A stretch of 64,000 nt of DNA from Chloroflexota bacterium. Its GTDB lineage: Bacteria > Chloroflexota > Dehalococcoidia > DSTF01 > JACRBR01. The position numbers were made by a program, and so were the translations under genes. The notes beneath the pieces were generated by a model. That model had not been told where the DNA came from. It saw only the letters and a program-made list of their open reading frames with translations, and made no database searches. The stretch spans positions 15,006 through 79,005 of the forward strand of contig JBBING010000003.1 in NCBI GenBank assembly GCA_037444005.1, written 5' to 3'. This document shows positions 4,949 to 44,297 of this stretch, piece after piece (position 1 is the stretch's first letter; each line of letters opens with the position of its first letter).

Positions 4949-5038
4949 GACACGATCATTATCCGGGAGCCCCGATCCCCGGACAAGGGACGGTGGATAC
5001 AGCCGTCGCCGAGCTTTTCCGTGACTTCGGGTGAGGCT

Positions 5039-5602
5039 ATGCTGGCGACGATGGTGTCGCCACCCGTGAGCCGGGCGCCCGCGTCCCGTACGCCCGAGGC
5101 GGAATCGGATCCCGAATACGAGGCGTTGCTCGCGCTGGCGCGGGTCTGCGCGCGGCGCGGCCCCGACGCGCATCCGCTCGACAAGCTGCAGGATGTCGTC
5201 GACCTGGCGAGAGAGCTGACCGGGGCCCGCTACGCCGCGCTGGCCGTCACGGACGAACGAAACCGCACCGAGGGCTTCGTGGTGTCCGGCCTGGACTCCG
5301 CGACGCTCCGCCGCTTGAAGACGCCTCCACAGGGGCATGGCCCCCTCGGTGTCTTGCGGGCGGACGGCCGTCCGGTGCGATACGACAACCTGGATGCGGT
5401 GCGGAACGCGTTCGGCTTCCCGCCGAAGCACCCCGTGATGCGGACGCTCATGGGAACGCCCATCTGGGTACGCGGGACGGTCCGCGGGAGCCTGTACGTC
5501 ACCGATCGCGACGGCGGGAAGCCGTTCCGAGATCGGGACGAGGCGACGCTACTGACGCTCGCGCGACACGCCGCGAACATCATCGAGCGGGACTGGTACT
5601 GA
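5039..5602 (+). CDS. GAF domain-containing protein (stand-alone)
   Basis: 187-aa ORF with an RBS GGTGAGG before the ATG. GAF-like core (LDKLQDVVDLARELTGARYAALAV ... GSLYVTDR). Divergent from the radical SAM gene. Confidence 0.7.
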   Translation: MLATMVSPPVSRAPASRTPEAESDPEYEALLALARVCARRGPDAHPLDKLQDVVDLARELTGARYAALAVTDERNRTEGFVVSGLDSATLRRLKTPPQGHGPLGVLRADGRPVRYDNLDAVRNAFGFPPKHPVMRTLMGTPIWVRGTVRGSLYVTDRDGGKPFRDRDEATLLTLARHAANIIERDWY

Positions 5603-5605
5603 GCG

Positions 5606-6538
5606 GTGCGCCTGCTGACGTACGCTTCGCCGCGAGGTCCCCGTCTGGGGGCGGTGCTCGATGGCGTTGTGTTCGACCTCGCGGACGAGGCGAACGCGCT
5701 CGGCCTGCCCCCGCTTCCCTCTGACATGCTCGCGTTCATCGAGGCAGGGCTTGGTGCCCTCAGCGCCGCGCGAGCAACCCTCGACGCCGTGCGTGAGGCC
5801 GGCAGGACCGGCGTGCCACTCGAACGCGTACGTCTGCTCGCGCCCATCCCGCGCCCGCGCAAGAACGTGATGTGCGTCGGGTTAAACTACGCTGAGCACG
5901 CGCGGGAGTCGCAAAGCGTGAGCGGACCCGGCCTACCCGAGGTTCCGGTGTTCTTCACGAAGGCGCCGACCTGCGTCATCGGGCCCGACGAACCGATCCC
6001 GTATCCCGAGGGCGTGAGCGAGGCCGTGGACTGGGAGGCGGAGCTAGTCGCGGTCATCGGCCGACGGGTCCGCGACGTGGCGGCGTCGGCTGCGCTCGAG
6101 TGCGTGTTCGGGTACATGGCCGGGAACGACGTGACGGCCCGCGATTTGCAGAGAGCGCACCAGCAGTGGTTCAAGGGCAAGAGCCTCGACGGCTTCTATC
6201 CCCTCGGGCCGTGGATCGTGACCGCAGACGAAATCCCGGACCCGCAATCGCTCCAAATCCGCCTGCGGGTGGACGGCGTGACGAAGCAGGATGCAAGCAC
6301 AGCGGACATGATCACGCCCGTCGCAGGGCTCATCGCGTCGCTGTCGAGAGGGATGACGCTGGAGCCGGGCGACCTTTTGATGACGGGCACGCCGGCGGGT
6401 GTAGGCGTCGGAAGGACGCCGCCGGAGTTCCTGCGGCTGGGAAATGTCGTCGAGGTCGAGATCGAACGCATCGGCGTGTTGCGGAACCGGGTGGAGCTGA
6501 GGCGGGGTCCGGCGCTTTCGAGCGCGTCGGGCGCTTGA
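5606..6538 (+). CDS. Fumarylacetoacetate hydrolase (FAH) family protein
   Basis: GTG start 4 nt after the GAF stop. FAH-fold signatures: KNVMCVGLNYAEHA, DWEAELVAVIG, GDLLMTGTPAGVG. Confidence 0.88.
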   Translation: MRLLTYASPRGPRLGAVLDGVVFDLADEANALGLPPLPSDMLAFIEAGLGALSAARATLDAVREAGRTGVPLERVRLLAPIPRPRKNVMCVGLNYAEHARESQSVSGPGLPEVPVFFTKAPTCVIGPDEPIPYPEGVSEAVDWEAELVAVIGRRVRDVAASAALECVFGYMAGNDVTARDLQRAHQQWFKGKSLDGFYPLGPWIVTADEIPDPQSLQIRLRVDGVTKQDASTADMITPVAGLIASLSRGMTLEPGDLLMTGTPAGVGVGRTPPEFLRLGNVVEVEIERIGVLRNRVELRRGPALSSASGA

Positions 6539-6539
6539 G

Positions 6540-6545
6540 TACAAT
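6540..6545 (+). promoter_or_regulatory. Putative -10 element (TACAAT within GTACAATGGCCGC) upstream of galU
   Basis: TACAAT sits 33 nt upstream of the galU GTG. The same 13-mer recurs at the nfi start. Confidence 0.35.
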
Positions 6546-6578
6546 GGCCGCGCATCGGCCCCTCGGCAGGAGGCGCGC

Positions 6579-7445
6579 GTGAAGGTCCGAAAGGCTGTGG
6601 TGCTCGCCGCCGGGTACGGCACCCGTCTGCTGCCGGCGACCAAGGCGCAACCCAAGGAAGCGCTCCCCCTCGTCGACAAGCCCATCATCCAGTACACGGT
6701 CGAGGAAGCGGTCGAATCGGGCATCACGCACGTCATCATCGTGACCGCGATGGGTAAGCGGGCGATCGAGGATCATTTCGACCGCTCGCTCGAGCTGGAG
6801 ATGGCGCTCCGCGAGAAGGGGGATCTCGAGCGTCTCGCCGAGGTCCAGCGTATCTCCGAGCTGGCCAACATCGTGTACGTGCGCCAGAAGCAGCAGCTTG
6901 GCATCGGCCACGCCGTGCTGCAGACGCGAGACCTCGTGGGCAGCGAGCCCTTCGTCCTCTTCTTCCCCGATGACGTCATCGTGGCCGAGAGGCCGGTGGC
7001 GCTCCAGATGATCGGCGTGTTCAAGGAGTTCGACGGGCCAGTGCTGGGCGTGCAACGGGTGCCCAAAGAGGAGATCTCGCAGTACGGCGTCGTCGAAGGC
7101 GAGCCGGTACGTGAAGGAGTGTGGCGCGTCCGGTCGCTCGTCGAAAAGCCCGACCCCGATGAAGCGCCCTCCGACCTCGGTATCGTCGGCCGCTACGTCC
7201 TGACGCCCGACGTCTTCGACATCATCGAGCGCACCCCTCCCGGAAAAAACGGCGAAATCCAGATCACCGACGCGTTGAACACGCTAGCCGGCCGCCGGCC
7301 GATGTTCGCGTACCAGTTCGAGGGCAAGCGGTACGACACCGGGCGCCCGCTCGGCTTCCTTCAGGCGTCGGTGGAGCTCGCCCTCCGGCGCCCCGACATC
7401 GGGCCGAAGTTTCGCGAATACCTCCGGAACCTGGAGCTCGACTGA
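6579..7445 (+). CDS. galU: UTP--glucose-1-phosphate uridylyltransferase
   Basis: N-terminal KAVVLAAGYGTRLLPATKAQPKE (G-x-G-T-R nucleotidyltransferase motif) with VDKPIIQY and an AGGAGG RBS. The rest of the sequence reads as GalU throughout. Confidence 0.93.
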   Translation: MKVRKAVVLAAGYGTRLLPATKAQPKEALPLVDKPIIQYTVEEAVESGITHVIIVTAMGKRAIEDHFDRSLELEMALREKGDLERLAEVQRISELANIVYVRQKQQLGIGHAVLQTRDLVGSEPFVLFFPDDVIVAERPVALQMIGVFKEFDGPVLGVQRVPKEEISQYGVVEGEPVREGVWRVRSLVEKPDPDEAPSDLGIVGRYVLTPDVFDIIERTPPGKNGEIQITDALNTLAGRRPMFAYQFEGKRYDTGRPLGFLQASVELALRRPDIGPKFREYLRNLELD

Positions 7446-7447
7446 CC

Positions 7448-8752
7448 ATGCGCATCCTGTCCCTGGGGTTCCCGATGCCGGGACCGCGCGTGGACAACTA
7501 CAACTTCCTCAGCGCGCCCACGCTCTCCGACTACGAAGCCGTCGTCGTCGAGCCGGGCAGCTTCTCGCGCGTGGTCGAGGAAGTCGTCGCGGGCGAGGGC
7601 GAGCATCGCACGTTCTTCGATGAGCCCGTCGTGAACGGGACCACGGGACCGGGAGTGGTCGGCCTGGCCGACCTGCTACGGGATCGTCAGCGGCAGACGG
7701 CTCGATTGCTCGCCGGCGGCGGGACCGCGGTCGTGTTCGCGTACCCCGACGTCGTCCACACGAACGTGGCCGGCTTCACCGGATGCGACCGCTACTTCTG
7801 GCTCCCGGCGCCTGCGGGCCTCGCGTGGCGGGAACCCCACCTCGTACGGGCTGCGGGGGATCGCCTGGGCGACGTCGACCGCGACCACCCGTTCGCCGAA
7901 GCGGTCGACGCTATGGCGAAATACGTCGGCTTCCGGGCGGAGTTCACGGGTGAGGCGGTCAAGGCCGGCTCGGGAAAGGTCTTCTCCCGGAGTCCAGGCG
8001 GGAGCGCCATTGGTGTGGAGTTCCCCGTAGCGGGCGGCGTCGTGGTGTTCCTTCCGGCGCTGCGGAAGGCGCCCTCGGCCGACGACCGGTATCGCATTTC
8101 GAACGCGTTGCAGGACGCCATCGCGCGGACGGCCGGCCGGTTGGACGAGGCCGCGCCCGCATGGCTCGGCGACTACCCGCTTCCCGGACTCGCCGACGCG
8201 GAGGCCGAGCTGGCGGAGGCGCGCGTGCGCCTGGAAGAGGCGGCCGCCGAGGTCCGCGAGGCGCAAGCCCGCAAGACCGCGCTCGACCGACGCCGGCGCA
8301 TCCTGTGGCTGGGATCCGGCCCCGCTCTCGTGGACGCGCTCAAGGATGCCCTGAGCGTGCTCGGCTTCACCGTCGCCGGAGGCTTCGGTGAGCCGTTGAC
8401 CGCGACCATCGACGATCAGCGCGTCGCGGTCGAAGCGGCGGCCAGCGATGGCGAGGTCGGGCTGGACCCGCATTACCGGCTGCGCGCCCGGATCGAAGCT
8501 GCTATCGCAGAAGGGAAAGCAGTCCCGCGAGGGGTCGTCTTCGTGAACGGCTACCGGCAGCGGCCGCCCGCCGACCGGCCGACGCAGTACGCGCAGGCGC
8601 TTCGCGTGGCGGCCGAATCCATGCGATACTGCGTCGCGACGACGGACCAGCTCTATCAGGCGGTGCGGAGCGCGATGGAAGGCGAGCAGGGAACCGTCGC
8701 GCGGTTCCGGGAGTTGCTCCTCTCGACGGACGGAGCGCTGCGTCTCGATTGA
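7448..8752 (+). CDS. Conserved hypothetical protein (434 aa; N-domain, coiled-coil, C-domain)
   Basis: The ATG lies 3 nt after the galU stop. It has a central Ala/Glu/Arg-rich predicted coiled coil (EAELAEARVRLEEAAAEVREAQARKTALDRRRR) and no catalytic motif I recognise. Confidence 0.55.
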   Translation: MRILSLGFPMPGPRVDNYNFLSAPTLSDYEAVVVEPGSFSRVVEEVVAGEGEHRTFFDEPVVNGTTGPGVVGLADLLRDRQRQTARLLAGGGTAVVFAYPDVVHTNVAGFTGCDRYFWLPAPAGLAWREPHLVRAAGDRLGDVDRDHPFAEAVDAMAKYVGFRAEFTGEAVKAGSGKVFSRSPGGSAIGVEFPVAGGVVVFLPALRKAPSADDRYRISNALQDAIARTAGRLDEAAPAWLGDYPLPGLADAEAELAEARVRLEEAAAEVREAQARKTALDRRRRILWLGSGPALVDALKDALSVLGFTVAGGFGEPLTATIDDQRVAVEAAASDGEVGLDPHYRLRARIEAAIAEGKAVPRGVVFVNGYRQRPPADRPTQYAQALRVAAESMRYCVATTDQLYQAVRSAMEGEQGTVARFRELLLSTDGALRLD

Positions 8753-8765
8753 CAGGGAGGTGTGC

Positions 8766-9569
8766 ATGACGGCGGCTTCGGGTCCTGACTGGGCGCTGAT
8801 TCTGGGCGCATCCAGCGGGTTCGGCGGCGCGACGAGCCTCGAACTCGCGCGCGCCGGCCTGAACATTTTCGGCGTGCATCTCGACATGCGGGCCACGCTT
8901 CCGAACGCGGAACGGATCCGCGACGAGATTCTGGGCATGGGCCGGCAGGCCGTGTTCTTCAACGTGAACGCCGCTGACGCCGAGAAGCGACGGATGGTCG
9001 TCGACGCTATCCGCGAGCGATTCCAGCAGGACGGCGGGGGGCGCGTGCGCGTGCTCCTGCACTCGTTGGCGTTCGGTACGCTGAACCCGTTCATCGCTGA
9101 GTCGCCCAAGGATGCCATCACCCAGAAGCAAATGGAGATGACGCTGGACGTGATGGCGCACAGCCTCGTGTACTGGACGCAGGACCTGGTGGCGGCGGGC
9201 CTCCTGACGCGCGGCAGCCGCATCTTCGCGATGACGAGTTCGGGGTCGACCCGCGTCATCAAGTCCTACGGCGCTGTGTCCGCCGCCAAGGCGGCGCTCG
9301 AGTCGCACATCCGGCAGCTCGCGTTCGAGCTCGCGCCCATGGGCATCACGGCGAACGCGATTCGCGCGGGGGTGACGGACACGCCGGCGTTGCGCCGCAT
9401 TCCGGGAGGGGTCGAACTGCTCGAGCGCGCGCAGCGGCTCAACCCGAGCGGGCGCGCCACGCGGCCCGAAGACGTCGCCAAGGCGATCGCGGCGCTCATC
9501 GACGAGCGTTTGTACTGGATGACCGGGAACGTCATCGGTGTCGACGGCGGCGAGGACATCACCGGCTGA
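8766..9569 (+). CDS. Enoyl-ACP reductase-like SDR (FabI/FabL family)
   Basis: Rossmann GASSGFGGA motif and the Y-x6-K catalytic dyad (SYGAVSAAK) typical of FabI-type enoyl reductases. RBS AGGGAGG sits 6 nt before the ATG. Confidence 0.8.
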   Translation: MTAASGPDWALILGASSGFGGATSLELARAGLNIFGVHLDMRATLPNAERIRDEILGMGRQAVFFNVNAADAEKRRMVVDAIRERFQQDGGGRVRVLLHSLAFGTLNPFIAESPKDAITQKQMEMTLDVMAHSLVYWTQDLVAAGLLTRGSRIFAMTSSGSTRVIKSYGAVSAAKAALESHIRQLAFELAPMGITANAIRAGVTDTPALRRIPGGVELLERAQRLNPSGRATRPEDVAKAIAALIDERLYWMTGNVIGVDGGEDITG

Positions 9570-9590
9570 TCGCCGGCGCTCTCCCCGCAC

Positions 9591-10415
9591 ATGACCGCGA
9601 CGGTGCCCCCCGAGACGACCCCCGCGACGCGCGTGTTCGTCGCCCACGGCGCGCAGGTCTTCGCGCGTCTCTGGGACGGCGCCGAGCCAACCGTGCTGAT
9701 CCTCCACGGGTGGGGTAGCAAGGGCGAACGCTGGCTTCGCGTTGCCCAGGGGCTCGCCGAGGCAGGCTGGGCCGTCTGTCTCCCTGACCTGCCCGGCTTC
9801 GGCGAGAGCCCGCCACCGCCCGCGCCGTGGGCTGTGGAGGACTACGCGCACGCCGTCGACGAGATGACGCGCGAGCTCGGAGCCCCAACGACCTTCGTGG
9901 TCGCGCATTCGTTCGGCTCGAGGATCGCCATTCGCCTCGCTGCGACCGGACGGGCGGGCATCCGCGCTATGCTGCTCACCGGCGCGGCAGGGCTCCGGCC
10001 GCGGATCACGTGGCGACGGCGGCTACTGAGCCGGGCCGCGCGGGCCGGCGCCGCCGTCTTCGCGCTGCCCCCTCTGCGGCCAGCCGCCGACCTCGCGCGG
10101 CGGGCGCTGTATCGCGCGATCGGCTCCATGGACTACTACCTGGCCCGCGGGGTGATGCGGGACACGTTCCGGCTCGTGGTCGAAGAGGACCTGGCGAACG
10201 ACATGCGGGCGGTCAATGTGCCGGTGAAGCTGCTCTGGGGCGCCGACGACCGCGCGACGCCCCTCAGCGACGGCCGCCGTATGGCCGGCCTCATCCCCGG
10301 AGCGGAGCTCGAGGTCGTGGAGGGTGTGGGCCACGCCCTGCCCCACGAGCGCCCCGAGCTTCTCGTGTCTCGTGCGCGGGCGTTCTTCGAGACGGCGCGG
10401 GGAGCGGCCCGATGA
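9591..10415 (+). CDS. Alpha/beta hydrolase fold protein
   Basis: HGWGS oxyanion region, nucleophile elbow AHSFGS, and a C-terminal GVGHALPHE His motif. The stop overlaps the next start (ATGA). Confidence 0.85.
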   Translation: MTATVPPETTPATRVFVAHGAQVFARLWDGAEPTVLILHGWGSKGERWLRVAQGLAEAGWAVCLPDLPGFGESPPPPAPWAVEDYAHAVDEMTRELGAPTTFVVAHSFGSRIAIRLAATGRAGIRAMLLTGAAGLRPRITWRRRLLSRAARAGAAVFALPPLRPAADLARRALYRAIGSMDYYLARGVMRDTFRLVVEEDLANDMRAVNVPVKLLWGADDRATPLSDGRRMAGLIPGAELEVVEGVGHALPHERPELLVSRARAFFETARGAAR

Positions 10416-12049
10416 TTGCGCTCGCTCTCGCGGCGGCCGCGCTCGCCGCTCTGCGAACGGTGCGCGCGGCGCTGCTGTACATCAGCCTGTGGCAGGTTCG
10501 CGAGTACCGATGGGATCGCTTCCGCGCGTTCCTCGGCACGCGGGCGGCCCGGACGTTGGCGCTTCATCCGTTCCCGCTCGCGCGACTCGCGCTTCTCGCG
10601 GCGCTCGTCGCCATCGCTCGCTGGACGCAACCGGGGGAGGCGGCGCTGGGCGCGATCGTGGCGCTCTACGCGCTCGAGGTGGGGCTCGGCGCGAGGGAAG
10701 CAGTGGCACGGACGATCCGGCGTCCCGCGCGGACCTTCAGGGCGCTCGCCCTGACGGCGGCGGTCGTCTTCGCGGGTTGGGCCGCCATCGCGGCCGCGGT
10801 CGTGGTGGCGATGACCGCCGATCTCGATGACCACGTTCGCTGGTTTACCCTCGCCCTGGCGTTGCTCGCCATCGACCGCCTGCTGCCGTTTGCGGCGGGC
10901 GCGCTCGTGCTGGCTGCGCGGCTGCCCAATCAGGCGCTGGTGGCCCTGGATGTGCAGCGGGCGCGACGCGCGATGCGCGGCAGCCACGCGGTCGTCGTCG
11001 GCATCACCGGGAGCTACGGGAAGACGAGCACGAAGACGTTTCTCGCCACCATCCTCTCGCAGCGCCGCCGGGTCTGGGCGACCCCGGGCAGCGTCAATAC
11101 GCTCGTCGGCGTGGCCCGCCTCATCGCCCGGTCGGGCGCCGACTACGACGTCATGATCGTGGAGATGGGCGCCTATCGTGAGGGCGAAATCCGGGCCATC
11201 TGCGAGCTCGTGCGGCCTAGAATTGGCGTGCTCACCGCGGTCGCGGAGCAGCACCTTGCGCTCTTCGGGAGCATCGAGCGGACGCTCGAAGCGAAGTTCG
11301 AGCTCATCGAGGCGCTGCCGCGAGACGGGCTCGCGGTGCTGAACGGCAACGACGCGCGCATCAGGGCGCGGAGCGAGGGCGTGGCCGTACCCCGCCGGTT
11401 CTATTCTGCGACCGGCCCCTCGGACGTGTGGGCGAAGGATGTGACGGTCGGCCGGGATGCCCTCGAATTCACGGTCGTGTATGGTCAGGAAGAGGCGCGA
11501 TTCCGCTGCGGGGTGCTGGGCAGGCAGAACGTCGAGCCGCTGCTCGCCGCCACGGCGGTCGCGCTCGAGCTCGGCATGACGCTTGCGGAGGTTCGCGACG
11601 CCGCGTCGGCGGTGAAGCCGGTCCGCCGCACGCTGGAGCCAGGCCAGCTTCCCGGCGGCGCGACGTGTATCGACGACACGTTCAGCGCGAGCCGCGCGGC
11701 GATCCTGGCGGCGCTGGACTTCCTGGCGGAGGCGCCCGCGGAGCGCCGATTTATCGTCATCTCGGGGATCCCCGAGCTCGCCGAGCTGACCCGGCCCGTT
11801 CACGAGGAGATCGGCGTCAGGATGAGCCAGGTTTGCGACCGCATGATCTGCGTCAACGGCGACTACGCTCCCTTCTACGAGCGCGCGATGGACGAAGCGG
11901 CCCGAAACGGACGGTTCTTCTTCGAGCCGGACCCGGCGAAGGCGGCCGCGCTTCTCGCCGACCTCCGCGCGGGGGACATCGTGCTGTTCGAGGGACGGGG
12001 AGCCGAACGGGTGCTGGACCGGCTGCGCGTGCGCGCGGAGGCGACGTGA
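10412..12049 (+). CDS. Mur ligase family protein (MurF-like) with N-terminal multi-TM domain
   Basis: About 190 N-terminal hydrophobic residues (some 5-6 TM) followed by the Mur ligase P-loop VVGITGSYGKTSTK and central/C-terminal Mur ligase domains (NGNDARI, ISGIPELAEL). Confidence 0.85.
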   Translation: MIALALAAAALAALRTVRAALLYISLWQVREYRWDRFRAFLGTRAARTLALHPFPLARLALLAALVAIARWTQPGEAALGAIVALYALEVGLGAREAVARTIRRPARTFRALALTAAVVFAGWAAIAAAVVVAMTADLDDHVRWFTLALALLAIDRLLPFAAGALVLAARLPNQALVALDVQRARRAMRGSHAVVVGITGSYGKTSTKTFLATILSQRRRVWATPGSVNTLVGVARLIARSGADYDVMIVEMGAYREGEIRAICELVRPRIGVLTAVAEQHLALFGSIERTLEAKFELIEALPRDGLAVLNGNDARIRARSEGVAVPRRFYSATGPSDVWAKDVTVGRDALEFTVVYGQEEARFRCGVLGRQNVEPLLAATAVALELGMTLAEVRDAASAVKPVRRTLEPGQLPGGATCIDDTFSASRAAILAALDFLAEAPAERRFIVISGIPELAELTRPVHEEIGVRMSQVCDRMICVNGDYAPFYERAMDEAARNGRFFFEPDPAKAAALLADLRAGDIVLFEGRGAERVLDRLRVRAEAT

Positions 12050-13296
12050 CCCGCCCCATCGCTATCTCGATCTCTCCGAACACCGACGCCTCCGATGTGC
12101 GGGCCGCAGCGCGCGAGCTCGCGCGGCCGTGGACGTGGACGGACGAACGGGATGTGCGGGCGTTGGAGGCGCGGTTCGCGGCGCGGTTCGGGGGACGGGC
12201 GTTCGCGTTCGAGAGCGCCCGGTCGGGGCTGTACACGCTCCTGGCGGCGATGGGCCTGTCGTCCGAGGATGAAACGCTGCTGCAGGCTTTCACCTGTGTG
12301 GCCGTGCCGAACGCGGTGCTGTGGGCCGGCGGACGCCCTGTCTACGTGGACATGGACCCGCGGACGTACAACATCGACCCCGCGGACCTCGAACGAAAGC
12401 TGACGCCCCGCAGCCGGGCCGTGATCGTGCAGCACACGTTCGGCATTCCGTGCGACCTGGACGCGGTGATGGAGATCACCGGTCGCCGGCGACTGCTCCT
12501 CATCGAGGACTGCGCGCACGCGCTCGGGGGCTCGCACGACGGGCGCGAGCTGGGCACATTCGGAGACGCGGCGGTGTTCAGCTTTGGCCGGGACAAGGTC
12601 ATCTCGTCGGTGTTCGGCGGCATGCTGGTGGTTAGGGAGCCCGACATCGCGGCGAGGGTCGCGGCGCTATACGAGAGCATCCCGTTGCCCTCGCGGCGAT
12701 GGACCGCCCAGCAACTGCTGCATCCCGTTGCGACCAACATCGCCGTACTGCCGCTGTACTTCCGGGCGAGGATCGGCGTCGTGCTGCTGGTAGGCTTCCA
12801 GCGTGCGGGGCTGTTGTCCCGGGCCGTCGCCCCGGAGGAGTTGCGCGGGGGCCGGCCTCGTGGCTGGGTTCGACGCCTTCCGGTGCCGCTGGCGCGCCTC
12901 GCGGCCAGACAGCTCGACCGGCTCGAGGCTCTCAATGCGCATCGGCGAGCCATGGCCGACGTCTACCGCGCCGAGCTGGACGGGATGGTGCTTCCCGCGC
13001 TTCACGACCCGGGCGACGTGCCCGTGTACCTCCGCTTCCCTGTCGCGACGTGGGAGCGGGACGCCATCATCGCGCGGGCGCGCCAGAAGCGCATCCTTCT
13101 GGACAAATGGTACGACGCGCCGGTAGCGCCCGCGGGCGTCGACCTCGCGGCCGTGCGGTATGTTCCGGGGTCGTGTCCCAACGTCGAGGCCGCGTGCGCG
13201 ACCACCCTCAATCTGCCCACGCACCCGCGGATCGACGCCGGCGACGCCCGCGCCATCGCGCGTCTCGTCCGCGAACGGGTCGAGGTGGCGGCATGA
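12046..13296 (+). CDS. DegT/DnrJ/EryC1/StrS family PLP-dependent aminotransferase
   Basis: GTG overlapping the upstream TGA. PLP-lysine context SFGRDKVISSVFGG and the IEDCAHALG motif. Confidence 0.85.
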   Translation: MTRPIAISISPNTDASDVRAAARELARPWTWTDERDVRALEARFAARFGGRAFAFESARSGLYTLLAAMGLSSEDETLLQAFTCVAVPNAVLWAGGRPVYVDMDPRTYNIDPADLERKLTPRSRAVIVQHTFGIPCDLDAVMEITGRRRLLLIEDCAHALGGSHDGRELGTFGDAAVFSFGRDKVISSVFGGMLVVREPDIAARVAALYESIPLPSRRWTAQQLLHPVATNIAVLPLYFRARIGVVLLVGFQRAGLLSRAVAPEELRGGRPRGWVRRLPVPLARLAARQLDRLEALNAHRRAMADVYRAELDGMVLPALHDPGDVPVYLRFPVATWERDAIIARARQKRILLDKWYDAPVAPAGVDLAAVRYVPGSCPNVEAACATTLNLPTHPRIDAGDARAIARLVRERVEVAA

Positions 13297-14306
13297 TCGA
13301 CGTGCGGACGGTCGACGACCGGGAACGCTGGGACGCTTTTGTGACGGCGCAGCCCGGCCACACCTTCCTGCAATCGTCCAACTGGGGTGAGCTGAACGCC
13401 TCCCTGGGGCATCCGGCGCACTTTCTCGGGCTGTGGGAGGGGGGCGACCTCATCGGCGCCGCGCTCACGTTGGAGATGCGGTCGCGCCGGGGACGCTTTC
13501 TCTTTGTGCCGCACGGCCCTCTCATGCCGTGGTCCGAGCGCACGTTCGGCGCGCTCCTCGAGGCGCTGCGAGCGCTGGCGAGAGAGCGGCGGTGCGCATG
13601 GATTCGCATCAGTCCGGTGATCTCGCGCGACTCGGCGTTCGGGGCGCTGTTCCGGCAGCACGGCTTCCGTGGCGCGCCCATTCACGTGCACGCCGAGAGC
13701 ACATGGACGCTGGACGTGCGGCGCTCGGACGAGGAGCTGCTCGCTGGCATGCGGCAGACGATGCGGAACTCGATTCGCCGGGCGATCAAGGACGGGGTCG
13801 AAGTGCTGCGAGGGTGCGACCCGGGCCTGCGGGCGGCGTTCTCGAAGCTGTACTACGACACTGTCGAGCGGCAGCAGTTCACCCCGTACTCCGCGGCGTT
13901 TCTCGAGCGTGAGGTCGACTGCTTCGCCCGGGACAACCGTATCCAGGTCTACGTCGCGATGTACCAGGGGGAGGCGCTGGCGGGGGCGATCGTGGTCTTC
14001 TACGGGAATTCGGGCTTCTACCATCACGGGGCCACGGCGAACATCCATCGCAAAGTGCCCGCCTCGTACCTGGTGCAGTGGGAGGCCATCCGCGAGGCGC
14101 GGGAGCGCGGGTGCGCGTACTACAACTTCTGGGGCATCGCGCCGGACGACCGGCCCGACCACCCGTGGGTCGGGCTCACGCGGTTCAAGCAGGGATTCGG
14201 GGGCTTTCGGACGGACTACCTCCACGCGCAGGACCTTCCGCTCAGCCCCGCGTACTGGCTGAACTGGGTGGTGGAGACGGCGCGGCGCATCCGGCGGCGG
14301 TACTGA
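13293..14306 (+). CDS. FemAB-family peptidoglycan interpeptide-bridge peptidyltransferase (GNAT fold)
   Basis: The ATG overlaps the upstream TGA. Sequence reads as FemX/FemAB family (FLQSSNWGEL..., ...YHHGATANIHRKVPASYLVQWEAIREARERGCAYYNFWGI). Confidence 0.85.
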   Translation: MIDVRTVDDRERWDAFVTAQPGHTFLQSSNWGELNASLGHPAHFLGLWEGGDLIGAALTLEMRSRRGRFLFVPHGPLMPWSERTFGALLEALRALARERRCAWIRISPVISRDSAFGALFRQHGFRGAPIHVHAESTWTLDVRRSDEELLAGMRQTMRNSIRRAIKDGVEVLRGCDPGLRAAFSKLYYDTVERQQFTPYSAAFLEREVDCFARDNRIQVYVAMYQGEALAGAIVVFYGNSGFYHHGATANIHRKVPASYLVQWEAIREARERGCAYYNFWGIAPDDRPDHPWVGLTRFKQGFGGFRTDYLHAQDLPLSPAYWLNWVVETARRIRRRY

Positions 14307-14335
14307 ACGGCCGCATCGGGGGCTGTGGGCACGGC

Positions 14336-14366
14336 TTTGCCGGGGCGTTCGGGGCGCGTATACAAT
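14336..14366 (+). promoter_or_regulatory. Putative sigma70-type promoter for yebC (TTGCCG-17-TATACAAT)
   Basis: -35 TTGCCG at 14336-14341, a 17-nt spacer, then TATACAAT at 14359-14366. The GTG at 14399 follows after a GGGGAGG RBS. Confidence 0.4.
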
Positions 14367-14398
14367 GGCGCCGAAGCTAGGGGAGGACACGACGTCTC

Positions 14399-15145
14399 GT
14401 GGCCGGCCATTCCAAATGGGCGCAGATCAAGCGCCAGAAGGGCGTCGCGGACGCGCGACGCGGACAACTGTTCACCAAGCTCGGCCGCGAAATCGCGGTC
14501 GCTGTGCGTCAGGGAGGCCCCGACCCTGAGGCGAACTTCCGCCTGCGCCTCGCCATCCAGCGCGCTCGCGACAACAACATGCCCAACGAGACCATCGAGC
14601 GGGCGATCAAGCGGGCGGCCGGAGCGACCGACGGCGCGCGACTCGAGGAGGTCGTGTACGAAGGCTACGGGCCCGGAGGGGCGGCCATCCTCATCGAAGC
14701 GCTGACCGACAACAGGAACCGCACGGTCGCGGAGCTGCGGAACGCCTTCAGCAAGCTCGGCGGGAATCTCGGCGAATCGGGTAGCGTCGCTTGGATGTTC
14801 GAGACGCGAGGCGTGATCGACCTGACGGTGGAGCCCGAGCGCGCCGAAGAGCTCGCGCTCGTCGCCATCGACGCCGGGGCGCAGGACTTCAAGATCGAAG
14901 GCACGGCGATGGAGATCCACACGCGGCCCGAGGACCTCGAGCGGGTGCGGAAGGCGCTCGAAGACGCCGGAGCGACCGTAGCCGAGGCGCAGATCTCGCG
15001 CGTGCCCACCACGACCGTGCAGCTCGACGCCAAGCGCGCGGAGCAAACGCTGCGGCTCATCGACCGGCTCGAGGAGCTGGATGACGTGCAGCGCGTCTAC
15101 TTCAACGCCGAGTTCCCGGACGAGGTGCTCGCCGCATACGCCTGA
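14399..15145 (+). CDS. yebC: YebC/PmpR family DNA-binding transcriptional regulator
   Basis: Highly conserved N-terminus MAGHSKWAQIKRQKGVADARRG...LRLAIQRARDNNMPNETIERAIKRA. Confidence 0.95.
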   Translation: MAGHSKWAQIKRQKGVADARRGQLFTKLGREIAVAVRQGGPDPEANFRLRLAIQRARDNNMPNETIERAIKRAAGATDGARLEEVVYEGYGPGGAAILIEALTDNRNRTVAELRNAFSKLGGNLGESGSVAWMFETRGVIDLTVEPERAEELALVAIDAGAQDFKIEGTAMEIHTRPEDLERVRKALEDAGATVAEAQISRVPTTTVQLDAKRAEQTLRLIDRLEELDDVQRVYFNAEFPDEVLAAYA

Positions 15146-15161
15146 ACGGCAGGAGGCCGCC

Positions 15162-15683
15162 ATCGCCTCGCGGCTGACCGTTATCGGCATCGATCCAGGG
15201 CTCCGGGTGACCGGCTGGGGCGTCGTCTCGCGAGACGGCCCCGATGTCCGCGCGGTCGCGTACGGCGCGATCCGTCCCTCTGCCCGCGCCCCAGTTCCCG
15301 AGCGGCTCGTCACCATCTTCACGGACCTCGTGGCCATCATCCAGCGGTACGGCGTCTCAGCGGCGGCTGTGGAGACGCCTTATGTGCCACGCGTGAACGG
15401 CGGCAGCCATCGCAGCGCGTTGACCCTCGGGCAGGCGCTGGCGGCGGCCATGATCGCGGTCGCGCACAGTGGCCTCGAGGTTGCTGAGTACGCGCCGGGC
15501 GAGGTCAAGCTCGCGGTCGCGGGATACGGCCGGGGCGACAAGGCGCAGGTGCAGCGGATGGTGCGCCTGCAGCTCGGCCTGCCGGCGCCGCCGGAACCGA
15601 AGGACGCCGCCGATGCGCTCGCCGTCGCGCTCTGCCACGCGCTGCGTACACGTGAGCTCGCCGTGAAGGAGGCGGCGCCGTGA
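15162..15683 (+). CDS. ruvC: Crossover junction endodeoxyribonuclease RuvC
   Basis: VIGIDPGLRVTGWGVV (catalytic Asp) and DAADALAVALCHA motifs. No canonical ATG/GTG/TTG lies in frame just upstream of LTVIGIDPG, so the start near 15162-15174 is uncertain. An AGGAGG RBS lies at 15151-15156. Confidence 0.85.
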   Translation: MASRLTVIGIDPGLRVTGWGVVSRDGPDVRAVAYGAIRPSARAPVPERLVTIFTDLVAIIQRYGVSAAAVETPYVPRVNGGSHRSALTLGQALAAAMIAVAHSGLEVAEYAPGEVKLAVAGYGRGDKAQVQRMVRLQLGLPAPPEPKDAADALAVALCHALRTRELAVKEAAP

Positions 15684-16279
15684 GCCCCATCGCGCGGCTT
15701 CGGGGTGTAGTCGCGGCCGTCGGTCCCGACTGGGTGGTTGTGGACGTGGCCGGCGTAGGATTCAAAGCGTCGGTCCCCTCGGGCCTCTGCGCGTCACTCA
15801 CGGAAGGACGCGACGTCACGCTGTACACCCACCTGCTGGTGCGCGAGGACGGCATGGCGCTGTACGGCTTCGAGACGCCCACCGACCTCGAGGTGTTCGA
15901 GCAGCTCATCTCGGTGTCGGGCGTCGGGCCGCGGGCGGCGCTCGCGCTGCTCTCCGCGATGAGCGCGAGAGAGCTCGCGACGGCGGTGGTCCAGGGCGAC
16001 GTCGCGCGCCTGCGAGCCGTGCCGGGCATCGGGGAGAAGACGGCGGGGCGGCTGGTCCTCGACCTCCAGGCGCGCCTGGCGCCCCTCGCCGTGTCGGGCG
16101 ACGGAGCCGCGATGCGGCCGGTCGCGCCCCGGCCCGACGAGGACGTCGTGGCGGCGCTCGTCAGCCTCGGATATTCCCAGGCGGAGGCCACCGCCGCGGC
16201 GGCGGAAGCTGGCGACGCCGACCGGCCTCTCGAGGAGCGTATCCGCCGGGCGCTCGCCTGGTTCGCCCGAAAGCCGTAG
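15680..16279 (+). CDS. ruvA: Holliday junction DNA helicase subunit RuvA
   Basis: GTG overlapping the ruvC stop. HhH motifs VSGVGPRAALALL and VPGIGEKTAGRLVLDL. Confidence 0.93.
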   Translation: MSPIARLRGVVAAVGPDWVVVDVAGVGFKASVPSGLCASLTEGRDVTLYTHLLVREDGMALYGFETPTDLEVFEQLISVSGVGPRAALALLSAMSARELATAVVQGDVARLRAVPGIGEKTAGRLVLDLQARLAPLAVSGDGAAMRPVAPRPDEDVVAALVSLGYSQAEATAAAAEAGDADRPLEERIRRALAWFARKP

Positions 16280-16296
16280 ACGGGCGCCGGGCTGGC

Positions 16297-16302
16297 TATA
16301 CT
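16297..16302 (+). promoter_or_regulatory. Putative -10 element (TATACT) giving a near-leaderless uvrB transcript
   Basis: TATACT lies 11 nt upstream of the uvrB ATG. There is no SD sequence between them. Confidence 0.3.
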
Positions 16303-16313
16303 GAGACTGCGCG

Positions 16314-18428
16314 ATGCCCGGCTTCAAGCTCGTCTCCGATTTCCGTCCCACAGGGGATCAGCCGCAGGCCATCGACGCCCTGGTCGAGGGCGTCCTGAAG
16401 GGCTACCGGCGGCAGACGCTGCTCGGCGTCACCGGGTCGGGGAAGACGTTCACGATGGCGAACGTCATCGCGCGGGTGAATCGTCCGACGCTCGTCCTCG
16501 CCCCCAACCGGACCCTGGCCGCGCAACTCTGCTCCGAGTTCAAGGAGTTCTTCCCCGAGAACGCGGTCGAATACTTCGTCTCGTACTACGACTACTACCA
16601 GCCAGAGGCGTACATCCCGCGGACGGACACGTACATCGCGAAGGACGCCGACATCAACGACGAGATCGACAAGCTGCGCCACGCTGCGACGCGGGCGCTG
16701 TTCGAGCGCCGCGACGTGCTGATCGTGGCGTCGGTGTCGTGCGTCTACGGCCTCGGCGAGCCGGAGGAGTATCAGTCGTTCGTGCTGCGGTTCGAGCGGG
16801 GCAAGCCGTTCAACCGGGCGCGGGCCATGCGAAGGCTCGTGGACATGCAGTACGAACGGAACGACATGACGCTCACGCGCGGCCGCTTCCGCCTCCGTGG
16901 CGACAGCATCACGATCCAGCCCTCGTACGAAGAGGTAGCCGTCCGTATCGACTTCTTCGGCGACGAAGTCGAGCGCATCATCGAGATCGACCCGCTGACC
17001 GGCGAGGTGCTCGGTGAGCGCGACTGGGTCGACATCTATCCCGCGAAGCACTTCGTGACGTCGCGGGAGAAGCTCGAGCAAGCCATCGCGGACATCGAGA
17101 TCGAGCTACGGGAGCGCGTCGAGGAGCTTCGGGCGCAAGGGAAGCTGCTGGAGGCGGCCCGCCTGGAGGAACGCACGCAGTACGACATCGAGGCGCTCCG
17201 AGAAGCCGGGTACTGCTCGGGGATCGAGAACTACTCCTGCCACCTGGCGCGGCGCCATCGCCCGGCCGACGGAAAGATGGCCGTCACGTGCGGGTCGACC
17301 CCGTGGACGCTGCTGGACTACTTCCCGGACGACTTCCTCATGTTCATCGACGAGTCTCACATCGCCGTGCCCCAGGTGCGCGGTATGTACCACGGCGACG
17401 TCTCGCGGAAGCAGACGCTCGTCGACTACGGGTTCAGGTTGCCGTCGGCCATCGACAACCGGCCCCTGAGCTTCGAGGAGTTCGAGCGCCGCCTCAACCA
17501 GGTCATCTTCGTCTCGGCGACGCCGGGACCCTACGAGCTCGAGGTCAGCGAGCAGGTCGTCGAGCAGGTCATCCGTCCTACCGGCCTCCTGGACCCGACC
17601 ATCGAGGTGAAGCCGACCAAGAATCAGATCGACGACCTCCTGCACGAGATTCGCGTTCGGGTCGACCGCGGGGAACGCGCGCTGGTGACGACGCTGACCA
17701 AGAAGATGGCGGAAGACCTCGCGGACTACCTGCAGGAGATGGGGATCCGGACGCACTACCTGCACAGCGAGATCGACACGCTGGAGCGGGTCGAAATCCT
17801 GCGCGACCTGCGGCAGGGCGTGTACGACGTCGTGGTGGGGATCAACCTGCTCCGCGAGGGTCTGGACCTTCCCGAAGTGTCGCTGGTGGCCATCCTCGAC
17901 GCGGACAAAGAGGGGTATCTCCGGTCGGGCGGCTCGCTCATCCAGACCATCGGGCGTGCGGCGCGGCACGTGAACGGCCACGTCATCATGTACGCCGACA
18001 CCATCACGGACTCCATGCGCCACGCCATCGACGAGACGAACCGCCGCCGGGCGATTCAGGAGGCGTACAACCGCGAGCACGGCATCACGCCCGAGGGCAT
18101 CCACAAGGCGATCCGCGACATCACGGACCACGTCAAGAAGGCCGCCGAGCAGCCGGTGGAGTACATGGGTCCGGTCGACCTCCCGAAGGACCAGATGTTC
18201 CGGCTGATCAAGGACCTCGAGGCGGAGATGAAGGCGGCGGCGAAGGCGATGGAGTTCGAACGCGCGGCGTTGCTCCGCGACCAGATCTTCGAGCTACGCC
18301 GGCAGCTCGCCGCCACGGCCGAGGGCGACCTGCTCCACGAGTTCGCGCGGACGGCGTACGGGTCACTTCGCGGCCGCCGCGAGGGACGACGTTCCGGTCG
18401 CATCAGCACGAGCCGCCGGTACCGGTAA
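16314..18428 (+). CDS. uvrB: Excinuclease ABC subunit B
   Basis: 704 aa. Walker A GVTGSGKT, a beta-hairpin region ([10 protein letters not shown]), helicase motifs, and the UvrB/UvrC interaction domain ([14 protein letters not shown]). Confidence 0.97.
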
Positions 18429-41544: not shown

Positions 41545-41621
41545 TGGCGCCCTCGGCAGGACTCGAACCTGCGACCTACTGATTCGAAGTCAGGCGCTCT
41601 ATCCGACTGAGCTACGAGGGC
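41545..41621 (-). tRNA. tRNA-Arg (anticodon TCG)
   Basis: Reverse complement folds as a cloverleaf: acceptor GCCCTCG/CGAGGGC, D-arm GCTC..GAGC, anticodon loop CTTCGAA, T-arm GCAGG-TTCGAGT-CCTGC, and an encoded CCA. Confidence 0.85.
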
Positions 41622-44220: not shown

Positions 44221-44297
44221 TGGGGTGGACGGAGGGATTCGAACCCTCGATCTCCTGGGCCACAACCAGGCGCATTAACCGCTATGCAACGCCCACC
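44221..44297 (-). tRNA. tRNA-His (anticodon GTG) with genomically encoded G-1
   Basis: Acceptor GTGGGCG/CGTCCAC with one G-U pair, an extra 5' G opposite discriminator C73, anticodon loop TTGTGGC, T-loop TTCGAAT, and an encoded CCA. Confidence 0.88.

What the first reader, a model, noticed from the sequence alone, without database searches (positions are those of the whole stretch)
9591..14306. Translationally coupled operon: alpha/beta hydrolase - membrane-anchored MurF-like ligase - DegT aminotransferase - FemAB peptidyltransferase
Four genes with 4-nt overlaps at every junction (10412/10415, 12046/12049, 13293/13296). The Mur ligase carries an unusual roughly 190-aa N-terminal multi-TM domain fused to a complete MurF-type ATP-dependent amide ligase; canonical Mur ligases are soluble.

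Together with a sugar 4-aminotransferase (DegT family) and a FemAB aminoacyl-tRNA-dependent peptidyltransferase, this looks like a pathway building a peptide-decorated amino-sugar cell-envelope polymer, rather than core peptidoglycan synthesis. galU, a conserved hypothetical and a FabI-like SDR lie immediately upstream.
Basis: partly seen in the sequence, partly recalled or inferred. Interest (0 to 1): 0.55.

Follow-up and report, generated by a model that had tools for sequence, protein, structure and literature searches.

The report
Membrane-anchored MurF cell-wall operon
This four-gene operon encodes an unusual membrane-embedded version of the cell-wall enzyme MurF with three partner enzymes, and comparison with other genomes suggests it is the organism's main peptidoglycan-precursor machinery, not a side pathway.

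Summary
Four + strand genes (9591-14306) overlap by ATGA/GTGA/ATGA. They encode an alpha/beta hydrolase, a 545-aa Mur ligase, a DegT-type aminotransferase and a FemX-like transferase.

The ligase N-terminus is a real, conserved five-helix membrane domain, not a mis-called start. However, the ligase is not a "complete" MurF. The membrane domain replaces MurF domain 1, and the protein scores below the TIGR01143 cut-off (238 vs 288.6 bits).

- The hydrolase plus TM-MurF pair occurs in about 72 of 80 species loci, in CPR/Patescibacteria, Chloroflexota, Poribacteria, Bacteroidales and Clostridia.
- In Poribacteria the pair sits exactly in the murF slot: murE-hyd-TMF-ddl-mraY-murD-ftsW-murG-murC.
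- In CPR peptidoglycan superclusters it is the only MurF-like gene.
- About 25 CPR loci carry the same hyd-TMF-DegT-Fem order as the window.

My best reading (about 0.6) is a membrane-tethered MurF isoform finishing the stem peptide next to MraY, with a FemX-like enzyme adding a branch. The roles of the hydrolase and DegT are unresolved.

I could not scan the source genome for a second, canonical murF. I found no paper describing this architecture.

The parts
9591..10415 (+). Alpha/beta-fold serine hydrolase (274 aa), no TM segment. It is the obligate partner of the TM-MurF.
   Evidence: Pfam Abhydrolase_1 3.7e-27. The Ser107-Asp220-His248 triad is conserved in 69 of 71 homologues found next to TM-MurF genes. 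It lies directly upstream of the ligase in about 72 of 80 GTDB loci and is fused to the ligase in P0117. The best PDB match is 6I8W at 4.6e-17.
10412..10975 (+). N-terminal membrane domain of the ligase (residues 1-188). It has five TM helices, N-terminus out and C-terminus in. The conserved cytoplasmic-face motifs are WQxxEYxxxRF and (K/R)(K/R)PxxTxK.
10976..12049 (+). MurF-type ATP-dependent ligase, central and C-terminal domains (residues about 189-545). MurF domain 1 is absent.
   Evidence: Mur_ligase_M and Mur_ligase_C. TIGR01143 murF scores 238.4 bits (cut-off 288.6), covering model positions 63-405; the next-best single-function family, murD, scores 67.9 bits. E. coli MurF 1GG4 matches at 3.4e-35. 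Foldseek top hit is MurF 3ZL8, TM-score 0.78. The P-loop, E251, H281, K295 and N311 are conserved.
12046..13296 (+). DegT/DnrJ/EryC1-family PLP aminotransferase (416 aa). Its C-terminal half is diverged and it carries a conserved hydrophobic insert of about 40 aa (residues about 215-265).
   Evidence: Pfam 3e-60. PDB matches cover only residues about 26-219 (perosamine synthetase, 4.8e-39). Lys184 and Asp155 are conserved in all 27-28 aligned homologues. Insert is conserved, KD 1.83. It follows the TM-MurF in about 25 CPR loci.
13293..14306 (+). FemX-like aminoacyl-tRNA-dependent transferase (337 aa) without the coiled-coil insertion.
   Evidence: Pfam FemAB 1.3e-38 and Acetyltransf_6 1e-12. 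NCBIfam gives FemX 66.9 bits, well below its cut-off of 500. PDB matches are S. aureus FemX 6SNR at 2.2e-23, with a gap over residues 231-300 of 6SNR, and Weissella FemX 4II9 at 4.4e-11.
14337..14366 (+). Promoter-like site between the Fem gene and yebC. It marks the probable downstream end of the transcription unit.
   Evidence: TTGCCG-18-TACAAT, the only sigma-70-like match in 5000-16500. This is a consensus match only.
6579..9569 (+). Lineage-specific co-directional upstream neighbours: galU (6579-7445), a 434-aa ORF with no family hit (7448-8752) and a FabL/FabI-like SDR (8760-9569). Gaps are 2, 7 and 21 nt. They may belong to the same transcript.
   Evidence: The same order is present in relatives L086 and L087. 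It is not present in CPR, Poribacteria or Bacteroidales loci.

Best explanation
The operon is the final part of this lineage's peptidoglycan-precursor pathway. It is built around a non-canonical, membrane-integral MurF.

Shown:
- Four overlapping genes are co-translated.
- Gene 2 has five TM helices, N-terminus out and catalytic part in the cytoplasm. These helices replace MurF domain 1, which in soluble Mur ligases holds the UDP-MurNAc part of the substrate.
- The ATP-binding and catalytic residues of the central domain are intact, and the fold is MurF.

Inferred from gene context in other phyla:
- The enzyme performs the MurF step. It adds the C-terminal D-Ala-D-Ala (or this clade's equivalent) to the MurNAc-tripeptide precursor at the inner face of the membrane, next to MraY.
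- The invariant polar residues on the cytoplasmic loops (Q28, Y32, R36, P105, T108) take over the substrate-holding role of domain 1.
- The FemX-like enzyme then transfers an amino acid from an aminoacyl-tRNA to the side-chain amine at stem position 3. This would give a branched precursor for indirect cross-links. Its short form, without a coiled coil, resembles Weissella FemX, which acts on the UDP-linked precursor.

Not resolved:
- The alpha/beta hydrolase is catalytically intact and is the universal partner of this ligase. Candidate roles are editing or trimming of precursors, or an acyl-transfer step.
- The substrate of the DegT-like PLP enzyme is unknown. Its hydrophobic insert suggests that it also works at the membrane surface.
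For: 1. MurF identity of the catalytic part. TIGR01143 is by far the best single-function family (238 bits, against 68 for murD). PDB MurF structures are the best sequence and fold matches.

2. Position in Poribacteria. In six loci the order is rsmH, small ORF, ftsI, murE, hyd, TMF, ddl, mraY, murD, ftsW, murG, murC, ftsQ-like.

3. Position in CPR. The superclusters L020, L027, L031 and L082 hold murE, murC, murB, murA, glmU, glmS, hyd, TMF, DegT, Fem, an undecaprenol-kinase-like gene, mraY, murI, murD, ftsW and murG. None of the 30 other Mur-ligase ORFs in the 85 loci analysed is MurF-like.

4. Link to D-Ala-D-Ala. A bona fide D-Ala-D-Ala ligase (TIGR01205 291-293 bits, cut-off 245.65) lies immediately downstream in about 32 loci. 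In Chloroflexota chromosomes TMF, mraY and ddl are adjacent.

5. Conservation of the window's arrangement. The exact order hyd-TMF-DegT-Fem occurs in about 25 CPR loci, usually followed by ftsQ and preceded by mreC/ftsI, at 31-39% identity.

6. The TM domain is a conserved domain specific to this architecture. Its model is confident.

7. Catalytic residues of the hydrolase and DegT are conserved family-wide.

8. Two Fem paralogues occur in L017 and L035. This fits stepwise bridge building, as with FemX/A/B.
Against: - In this lineage the cluster is not next to any dcw gene. There is no mur, mraY, ddl, ftsW or PBP gene in the 64-kb window. It sits downstream of galU and an SDR.
- I could not scan the source genome, so a canonical murF elsewhere is not excluded.
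- The protein is below the curated MurF cut-off and lacks domain 1.
- The subfamily found with DegT/Fem (the window and CPR) lacks the Arg of the (G/H)R(L/M) motif. That Arg is conserved in E. coli MurF and in all Ddl-linked members. This subfamily has no ddl nearby, so its added substrate may differ.
- No biochemical data exist for any member.
- The role proposed for the cytoplasmic loops is inference from a model whose coordinates I could not inspect.
Confidence: 0.6

Rival explanations
1. The operon is an accessory pathway. The ligase, aminotransferase and Fem enzyme decorate an amino-sugar-containing secondary cell-envelope polymer with a peptide. A separate canonical murF serves peptidoglycan.
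For: In this lineage the cluster is detached from the dcw genes. It lies directly downstream of a true galU and an SDR that could supply a UDP-keto-sugar. All solved structures matching the DegT gene are keto-sugar or inosose aminotransferases and related dehydratases. The ligase lacks the UDP-binding domain 1 and is below the MurF cut-off. The DegT/Fem-linked subfamily lacks a conserved Mur-ligase Arg and has no ddl nearby.
Against: The same four genes in CPR lie inside peptidoglycan and division clusters, with no other MurF candidate. CPR genomes are small, and one chromosome here is only 655 kb, so a second dedicated polymer pathway at that conserved position is unlikely. The galU-hypothetical-SDR genes are not linked to the module outside this lineage. 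The sister subfamily sits in the murF slot, next to ddl and mraY.
Confidence: 0.15
2. The ligase acts on a lipid-linked intermediate (undecaprenyl-PP-MurNAc-tripeptide, or lipid II lacking D-Ala-D-Ala) rather than on the UDP-linked one. The TM domain would bind the polyprenyl-pyrophosphate anchor. The last peptide-building step would then move to after MraY.
For: Domain 1, the UDP-substrate-binding domain of Mur ligases (PMC10214165), is replaced by an integral membrane domain. That domain has invariant polar residues exactly at the membrane-cytoplasm interface. From my own knowledge there is a precedent: MurT, a Mur-ligase homologue without domain 1, acts on lipid II. The hydrolase's best solved relative is 6I8W. 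I recall this entry as the membrane phospholipase PlaF, but that is from memory. The DegT-like protein has a hydrophobic insert.
Against: Gene order in Poribacteria keeps TMF and ddl upstream of mraY, as in the canonical pathway. Sequence similarity is to MurF, not MurT (MurT E = 5.8e-4 against MurF 1.4e-70). Membrane tethering alone, for channelling to MraY, explains the architecture equally well. MurD-FtsW chimeras already show Mur ligases tethered to membrane proteins.
Confidence: 0.15
3. The TM region is an annotation artefact, and the true start lies near the P-loop.
For: The maximal ORF in this high-GC sequence extends far upstream, to 9827. Long spurious extensions are therefore possible in principle.
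Against: GC3 supports this coding frame from about 10390. An ATGA overlap and an SD-like GGGAG motif sit at 10412. The same start is called in relatives. The N-terminal 186 residues are conserved across phyla and give 560 hits at E <= 1e-10. The AF2 model is confident.
Confidence: 0.01

Closest known systems
Canonical MurF (UDP-MurNAc-tripeptide:D-Ala-D-Ala ligase; E. coli 1GG4, T. maritima 3ZL8)
   Same: The central ATPase and C-terminal domains, the P-loop, the Glu/His/Lys catalytic residues and the fold are shared. Relatives occupy the murF position in dcw clusters and neighbour ddl and mraY.
   Different: Domain 1 is replaced by a 5-TM domain. The score is below the TIGR01143 cut-off. The GDMxELG motif of E. 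coli MurF (VVGDMAELG) reads PGxIELG in the family and SGIPELA in the window. In the window's subfamily the (G/H)R(L/M) arginine is lost. The ligase is always paired with an alpha/beta hydrolase.
MurT of the MurT/GatD lipid II amidotransferase (PMC6085368 and PMC6113224 appeared in searches; their content is recalled from my own knowledge)
   Same: It is a Mur-ligase-fold enzyme without the UDP-binding domain 1, and it works on a membrane-bound peptidoglycan precursor together with a partner enzyme.
   Different: MurT is soluble and carries a DUF1727 C-terminal domain. Its partner is a glutaminase. Sequence similarity to the window protein is marginal (E = 5.8e-4).
Natural Mur chimeras such as MurD-FtsW and MurE-MurF (PMC10214165)
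   Same: These are precedents for Mur ligases being tethered to membrane proteins, or fused to pathway partners, for channelling.
   Different: They fuse two known complete enzymes. Here the membrane part is a dedicated domain of unknown fold relationship that replaces a ligase domain. That survey does not mention TM-MurF or hydrolase fusions: 'transmembrane' and 'hydrolase' each occur 0 times.
FemX of Weissella viridescens and FemX/A/B of S. aureus
   Same: The FemAB fold is shared. The length (337 aa) and lack of a coiled coil match Weissella FemX. The context is peptidoglycan synthesis.
   Different: The score is only 66.9 bits against a FemX equivalog cut-off of 500. Donor tRNA and acceptor are unknown.
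Alternative peptidoglycan-precursor enzymes MurD2/MurL of Xanthomonas (PMC8788868)
   Same: A lineage-restricted variant Mur ligase works with a new partner enzyme in an otherwise canonical pathway (the enzyme names are from my own knowledge).
   Different: It concerns a different step (D-Glu addition), soluble enzymes and no membrane domain.

Membership tests
MurF (TIGR01143; HAMAP-type three-domain MurF) | Score at or above the curated family cut-off | tested here: not met
   238.4 bits against a cut-off of 288.6. The Poribacteria homologue scores 250.8.
MurF (TIGR01143; HAMAP-type three-domain MurF) | N-terminal domain 1 that binds the UDP-MurNAc-peptide substrate | tested here: not met
   No PF01225. 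The model match starts at position 63. PDB alignments start at E. coli residue 99. Five TM helices occupy residues 1-188 instead.
MurF (TIGR01143; HAMAP-type three-domain MurF) | Central ATPase domain with P-loop GxxGKT/S and the conserved Glu, His and Lys; C-terminal domain | tested here: met
   GITGSYGKTS, E251, H281 and K295 are invariant or nearly so. Mur_ligase_M and Mur_ligase_C are present. Foldseek TM-score to 3ZL8 is 0.78.
MurF (TIGR01143; HAMAP-type three-domain MurF) | Conserved Arg of the (G/H)R(L/M) motif at the start of domain 3 | tested here: not met
   The window has R-R-T-L, with Thr at the Arg column. CPR members have T, G, A or S there. Ddl-linked members keep H-R-L.
MurF (TIGR01143; HAMAP-type three-domain MurF) | Genomic role as the only MurF of the peptidoglycan pathway (dcw position, ddl/mraY neighbours) | tested here: inconclusive
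   Met for relatives in Poribacteria, CPR and Chloroflexota. Not testable for the window's own genome: there are no dcw genes in the 64 kb.
MurF (TIGR01143; HAMAP-type three-domain MurF) | ATP-dependent addition of D-Ala-D-Ala to UDP-MurNAc-tripeptide | not testable with these tools
   This needs an enzyme assay or genetic complementation.
FemAB family (PF02388) / FemX | FemAB fold with two GNAT-like domains and a score above the Pfam cut-off | tested here: met
   133.3 bits against a cut-off of 24. Matches to 6SNR and 4II9 span the full length.
FemAB family (PF02388) / FemX | Equivalog-level identity with UDP-MurNAc-pentapeptide:L-Ala transferase FemX | tested here: not met
   NF047883 scores 66.9 bits against a cut-off of 500.
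DegT/DnrJ/EryC1/StrS aminotransferases (PF01041) | PLP-binding Lys and Asp, and a score above the cut-off | tested here: met
   204.8 bits against a cut-off of 19.8. K184 and D155 are conserved in all 27-28 aligned homologues.
DegT/DnrJ/EryC1/StrS aminotransferases (PF01041) | Membership of a characterised equivalog (PseC, ArnB, DesI, WecE and others) | tested here: not met
   The best is PseC at 133.8 bits against a cut-off of 423.5. Only the N-terminal half aligns.
Alpha/beta hydrolase fold (PF00561) | Nucleophile elbow Sm-x-S-x-G plus the Asp and His of the triad | tested here: met
   AHSFG Ser107, Asp220 and His248 are conserved in 69 of 71 sequences.
MurT (lipid II isoglutaminyl synthase subunit) | Score at the NF045635 cut-off | tested here: not met
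   18.9 bits against a cut-off of 800.
PgsB/CapB poly-gamma-glutamate synthase (membrane-associated Mur-ligase relative) | Any family-level match | tested here: not met
   No PgsB/CapB model appears among the 22 NCBIfam hits at E <= 0.01.
Van-type resistance cluster with accessory MurF and FemAB-like VanK | D-Ala-D-Lac or D-Ala-D-Ser ligase and VanH/X genes in the neighbourhood | tested here: not met
   The ligases next to TMF score as D-Ala-D-Ala ligase above cut-off and far below the Van cut-offs. There are no such genes in the window.

The most novel reading that the evidence does not exclude
The TM-MurF family works on a lipid-anchored precursor rather than the UDP-linked one. Alternatively, in the DegT/Fem-linked subfamily that lacks the conserved Arg and a nearby ddl, it adds something other than Ddl-made D-Ala-D-Ala. 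In either case the always-present serine hydrolase, and in this subfamily the DegT-like PLP enzyme, would be integral catalytic partners. That would make this a re-wired late cytoplasmic stage of peptidoglycan synthesis, shared by CPR bacteria and a basal Chloroflexota lineage.
Probability: 0.15. Interest if true: 0.85.

Novelty: new variant of a known kind. Interest (0 to 1): 0.6.

Why it matters
Textbook and review accounts treat MurC-F as soluble cytoplasmic enzymes with an N-terminal UDP-substrate domain (PMC10214165). Here one of them is an integral membrane protein that has lost that domain and always travels with a catalytically intact serine hydrolase.

The family is not marginal. The membrane domain alone finds about 1,500 50%-identity clusters. 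A Bacteroidales member finds 7,853 proteins at E <= 1e-40. The family appears to be the only MurF in CPR peptidoglycan clusters.

Practical consequences:
1. HMM surveys that apply the TIGR01143 cut-off will score MurF as missing in these lineages. One Chloroflexota survey uses that model (PMC10608941).
2. MurF inhibitors, and models of a cytoplasmic Mur complex, may not transfer to these organisms.
3. The hydrolase and the DegT-like enzyme are candidate new peptidoglycan-pathway enzymes.
4. The shared hyd-TMF-DegT-Fem cluster is a possible marker linking CPR with a basal Dehalococcoidia-like lineage.
5. It may bear on the odd cell-wall amino-acid composition reported for Tepidiforma: Thr, Ala and Pro, with no DAP or Lys (PMC10284905).

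Tried and rejected
1. Mis-called start. Rejected on GC3, conservation, gene calls in relatives and the AF2 model.

2. PgsB/CapB, MurT, cyanophycin synthetase or a Van-type accessory MurF. All score far lower than MurF, or the required context is absent.

3. Exact-sequence look-up of the window protein in public assemblies found nothing. The closest protein is 95% identical, from a 'Dehalococcoidia bacterium' MAG.

4. Search of the 64-kb window for ddl, mraY, murC/D/E, ftsW, murG, a PBP, ftsQ and serS found none.

6. The idea that DegT plus Fem functionally replace Ddl, because in L083 ddl sits where DegT-Fem sit elsewhere. I set this aside. Four loci have Fem without DegT, two loci have two Fem paralogues, and aminoacyl-tRNA chemistry does not give D-Ala-D-Ala. 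I could not test ddl presence genome-wide.

7. Genes inserted between DegT and Fem in CPR loci were checked for a partner oxidoreductase. They are miscellaneous: CvpA/CAP, a metallo-beta-lactamase-fold protein, DUF4015, an M20 peptidase and a NUDIX protein.

8. Eight full-text literature searches for a membrane-bound or TM MurF, for CPR or Chloroflexota MurF, and for a Fem/DegT linkage found no description. The library holds open-access papers only.

9. Rfam and tRNA scans of the window found only tRNA-Arg and tRNA-His, far from the operon.

Full report
**1. Observation**

The window is about 69% G+C. Four + strand ORFs lie at 9591-10415, 10412-12049, 12046-13296 and 13293-14306 (translations).

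The junction sequences are ATGA, GTGA and ATGA, exactly at the stated positions. Each start has a GGAG-like motif 4-6 nt upstream.

Pfam assigns Abhydrolase_1, Mur_ligase_M plus Mur_ligase_C, DegT_DnrJ_EryC1 and FemAB.

Upstream lie a true GalU (TIGR01099 above cut-off), a 434-aa ORF without any family hit, and a FabL/FabI-like SDR. Downstream lie yebC, ruvC, ruvA and uvrB.

A promoter-like site lies between the Fem gene and yebC. Two relatives with 79% and 72% identical ligases show the same 13-gene neighbourhood and the same gene boundaries, from independent gene callers.

**2. The membrane domain is real**

- Third-position GC switches into the ligase frame at about 10390 and stays high through the first 190 codons.
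- The region has five hydrophobic segments.
- AlphaFold2 with a 24-sequence alignment gives pLDDT 91.2 and pTM 0.85. Helices run 2-29, 53-68, 75-98, 109-135 and 140-188, and the last one continues into the cytoplasm.
- Arg-rich loops (30-52 and 99-108) fall on the side of the ligase domain, so the N-terminus is outside and the enzyme inside.
- These two loops carry the family's invariant residues: Q28, Y32, R36 in WQxxEYxxxRF, and P105, T108 in (K/R)(K/R)PxxTxK.
- A profile of the domain alone finds 1485 representative proteins (560 at E <= 1e-10) among 1.84 billion. Most are 510-585 aa with the domain at residues 1 to about 190. Shorter hits look like fragments.

**3. The ligase is MurF-like but not a complete MurF**

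TIGR01143 is the best single-function family (238.4 bits, against 67.9 for murD). However, the score is below the cut-off of 288.6, and the match begins at model position 63.

E. coli MurF aligns from its residue 99. The best fold match is T. maritima MurF, TM-score 0.78 on the target.

The membrane domain therefore replaces domain 1, the part that binds the UDP-MurNAc-peptide in Mur ligases (PMC10214165). The P-loop, E251, H281, K295 and N311 are conserved.

**4. Comparative genomics**

A protein search returned hundreds of 540-560 aa homologues with only the M and C Pfam domains. They come from Chloroflexota and CPR. The closest is 95% identical, from a Dehalococcoidia MAG. One is a natural fusion with an alpha/beta hydrolase.

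A scan of one genome per GTDB species gave 80 loci. I called ORFs in them, searched them with the four window proteins, clustered the neighbours and annotated cluster representatives.

The hydrolase is directly upstream in about 72 of 80 loci. Two arrangements exist.

(A) hyd-TMF-ddl, in about 32 loci: Poribacteria, Bacteroidales, Clostridia, Anaerolineae and one CPR.
- In Poribacteria this is embedded as rsmH, small ORF, ftsI, murE, hyd, TMF, ddl, mraY, murD, ftsW, murG, murC, ftsQ-like. The Mur ligases were confirmed by NCBIfam.
- In two complete Chloroflexota chromosomes TMF is followed by mraY (TIGR00445, 189 bits, cut-off 192) and a true ddl.

(B) hyd-TMF-DegT-Fem, in about 25 CPR loci.
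- It is typically mreC, x, ftsI, greA, a class II aaRS, serS, hyd, TMF, DegT, Fem, ftsQ.
- In L020, L027, L031 and L082 it sits inside a full precursor cluster: ftsI, murE, x, murC, murB, murA, glmU, glmS, hyd, TMF, DegT, ..., Fem, a DAGK-like kinase, mraY, murI, murD, ftsW, murG.

All 30 additional Mur-ligase ORFs in the loci classify as MurC, MurD or MurE. None is MurF-like. The TM-MurF therefore fills the MurF slot.

The window has arrangement B at 31-39% identity to CPR proteins. It also has B-type sequence signatures: Y255, G286, H464 and E-G-R at 527-529.

**5. Partner enzymes**

- Hydrolase. The Ser107-Asp220-His248 triad is conserved in 69 of 71 sequences. It has no TM segment. In the fusion it follows the cytoplasmic C-terminus of the ligase, so it acts in the cytoplasm or at the inner leaflet. 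The closest solved structure is 6I8W at 4.6e-17.
- DegT-like protein. It keeps the PLP lysine and aspartate. Only its N-terminal half resembles known sugar aminotransferases. It carries a conserved hydrophobic insert.
- Fem protein. It is closest to S. aureus FemX and to Weissella FemX and lacks the coiled-coil insertion. Some CPR loci have two Fem paralogues, or Fem without DegT.

**6. Interpretation**

The simplest account is that this is the lineage's MurF step carried out at the membrane, followed by Fem-type branching of the stem peptide. The hydrolase and the PLP enzyme would be additional pathway components that remain uncharacterised.

It is not excluded here. The window has no dcw genes, it has galU and an SDR upstream, and I could not scan the whole genome.

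A more novel possibility is action on a lipid-linked precursor, or use of a different added substrate in subfamily B. That subfamily lacks the (G/H)R(L/M) arginine kept by E. coli MurF and subfamily A, and it has no ddl nearby.

**7. Novelty**

Databases name these proteins MurF. Eight full-text searches found no description of a membrane-integral MurF or of its hydrolase partner. The 2023 survey of Mur chimeras does not mention them.

I rate it a new variant of a known kind. The literature library is open-access only, so this rating is limited by what could be searched.

Noticed in passing
window 7448-8752 (+): A 434-aa ORF with no Pfam or NCBIfam hit and no hydrophobic segments lies between galU and the SDR, 2 nt and 7 nt from its neighbours. 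It is conserved at the same place in relatives L086 (431 aa) and L087 (434 aa).
   Followed up: partly
window 10412-12049; relevance to HMM surveys: TM-MurF proteins score 238-251 bits on TIGR01143, below the 288.6 cut-off. Surveys that apply this model with its curated threshold would report MurF as absent in these lineages. A Chloroflexota/Dehalococcoidia survey (PMC10608941) uses this model.
   Followed up: partly
L083 10001-10981 and neighbours (Doudnabacteria, MFEF01000002.1): This CPR locus has hyd-TMF-ddl-ftsQ. Here ddl sits exactly where DegT-Fem sit in about 25 other CPR loci. No ddl was seen within 10 kb in any DegT/Fem-type locus.
   Followed up: partly
window residues 404-408 of the ligase (about 11621-11635); alignment: The arginine of the (G/H)R(L/M) motif is invariant in the 35 Ddl-linked TM-MurFs and present in E. 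coli MurF. In the window and in CPR members it is replaced by Thr, Gly, Ala or Ser. The two subfamilies also differ at the C-terminus (NDLPD against EGR).
   Followed up: partly
P0117 / L004 7933-10494, L005 1890-4451: A natural 853-aa fusion joins TM-MurF to an alpha/beta hydrolase at its C-terminus. This is Rosetta-stone support for a functional complex of the two proteins.
   Followed up: partly
L017 1-936 and 4178-5248; L035 8214-9212 and 12574-13626: Two Fem paralogues flank the TM-MurF in these CPR loci. In most CPR loci seryl-tRNA synthetase and a class II (Asp/Lys/Asn-type) tRNA synthetase lie directly upstream of the hydrolase.
   Followed up: no
window 12046-13296, residues about 215-265 of the DegT-like protein: A conserved insert of about 40 aa contains a hydrophobic hairpin (Kyte-Doolittle 1.83) and the motif WIxQQLLHP...GK...ILSKAV..KEKRG. 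It is shared by all CPR homologues. Alignments to solved DegT-family structures stop just before it (at about residue 219).
   Followed up: partly
L080 9434-11032: The Bacteroidales version of TM-MurF is very abundant: 7,853 proteins at E <= 1e-40, with clusters of more than 2,000 members. It always occurs with the hydrolase upstream and usually with ddl downstream, away from the dcw cluster. Whether these genomes also have a canonical MurF was not determined.
   Followed up: partly
window 3653-5431 (-); L086 1966-2742, L087 58-843: A radical SAM/SPASM protein is encoded on the opposite strand upstream of the cluster. In the two relatives a sortase gene lies just beyond it, consistent with a monoderm-type wall with anchored surface proteins.
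   Followed up: no
window 41545-41621 and 44221-44296 (-): These are tRNA-Arg(TCG) and tRNA-His(GTG), the only RNA genes detected in the window.
   Followed up: yes
L002 9641-9847: A 68-aa DUF5652 protein is inserted between TM-MurF and DegT in one CPR-like genome (GCA_040960315.1).
   Followed up: no
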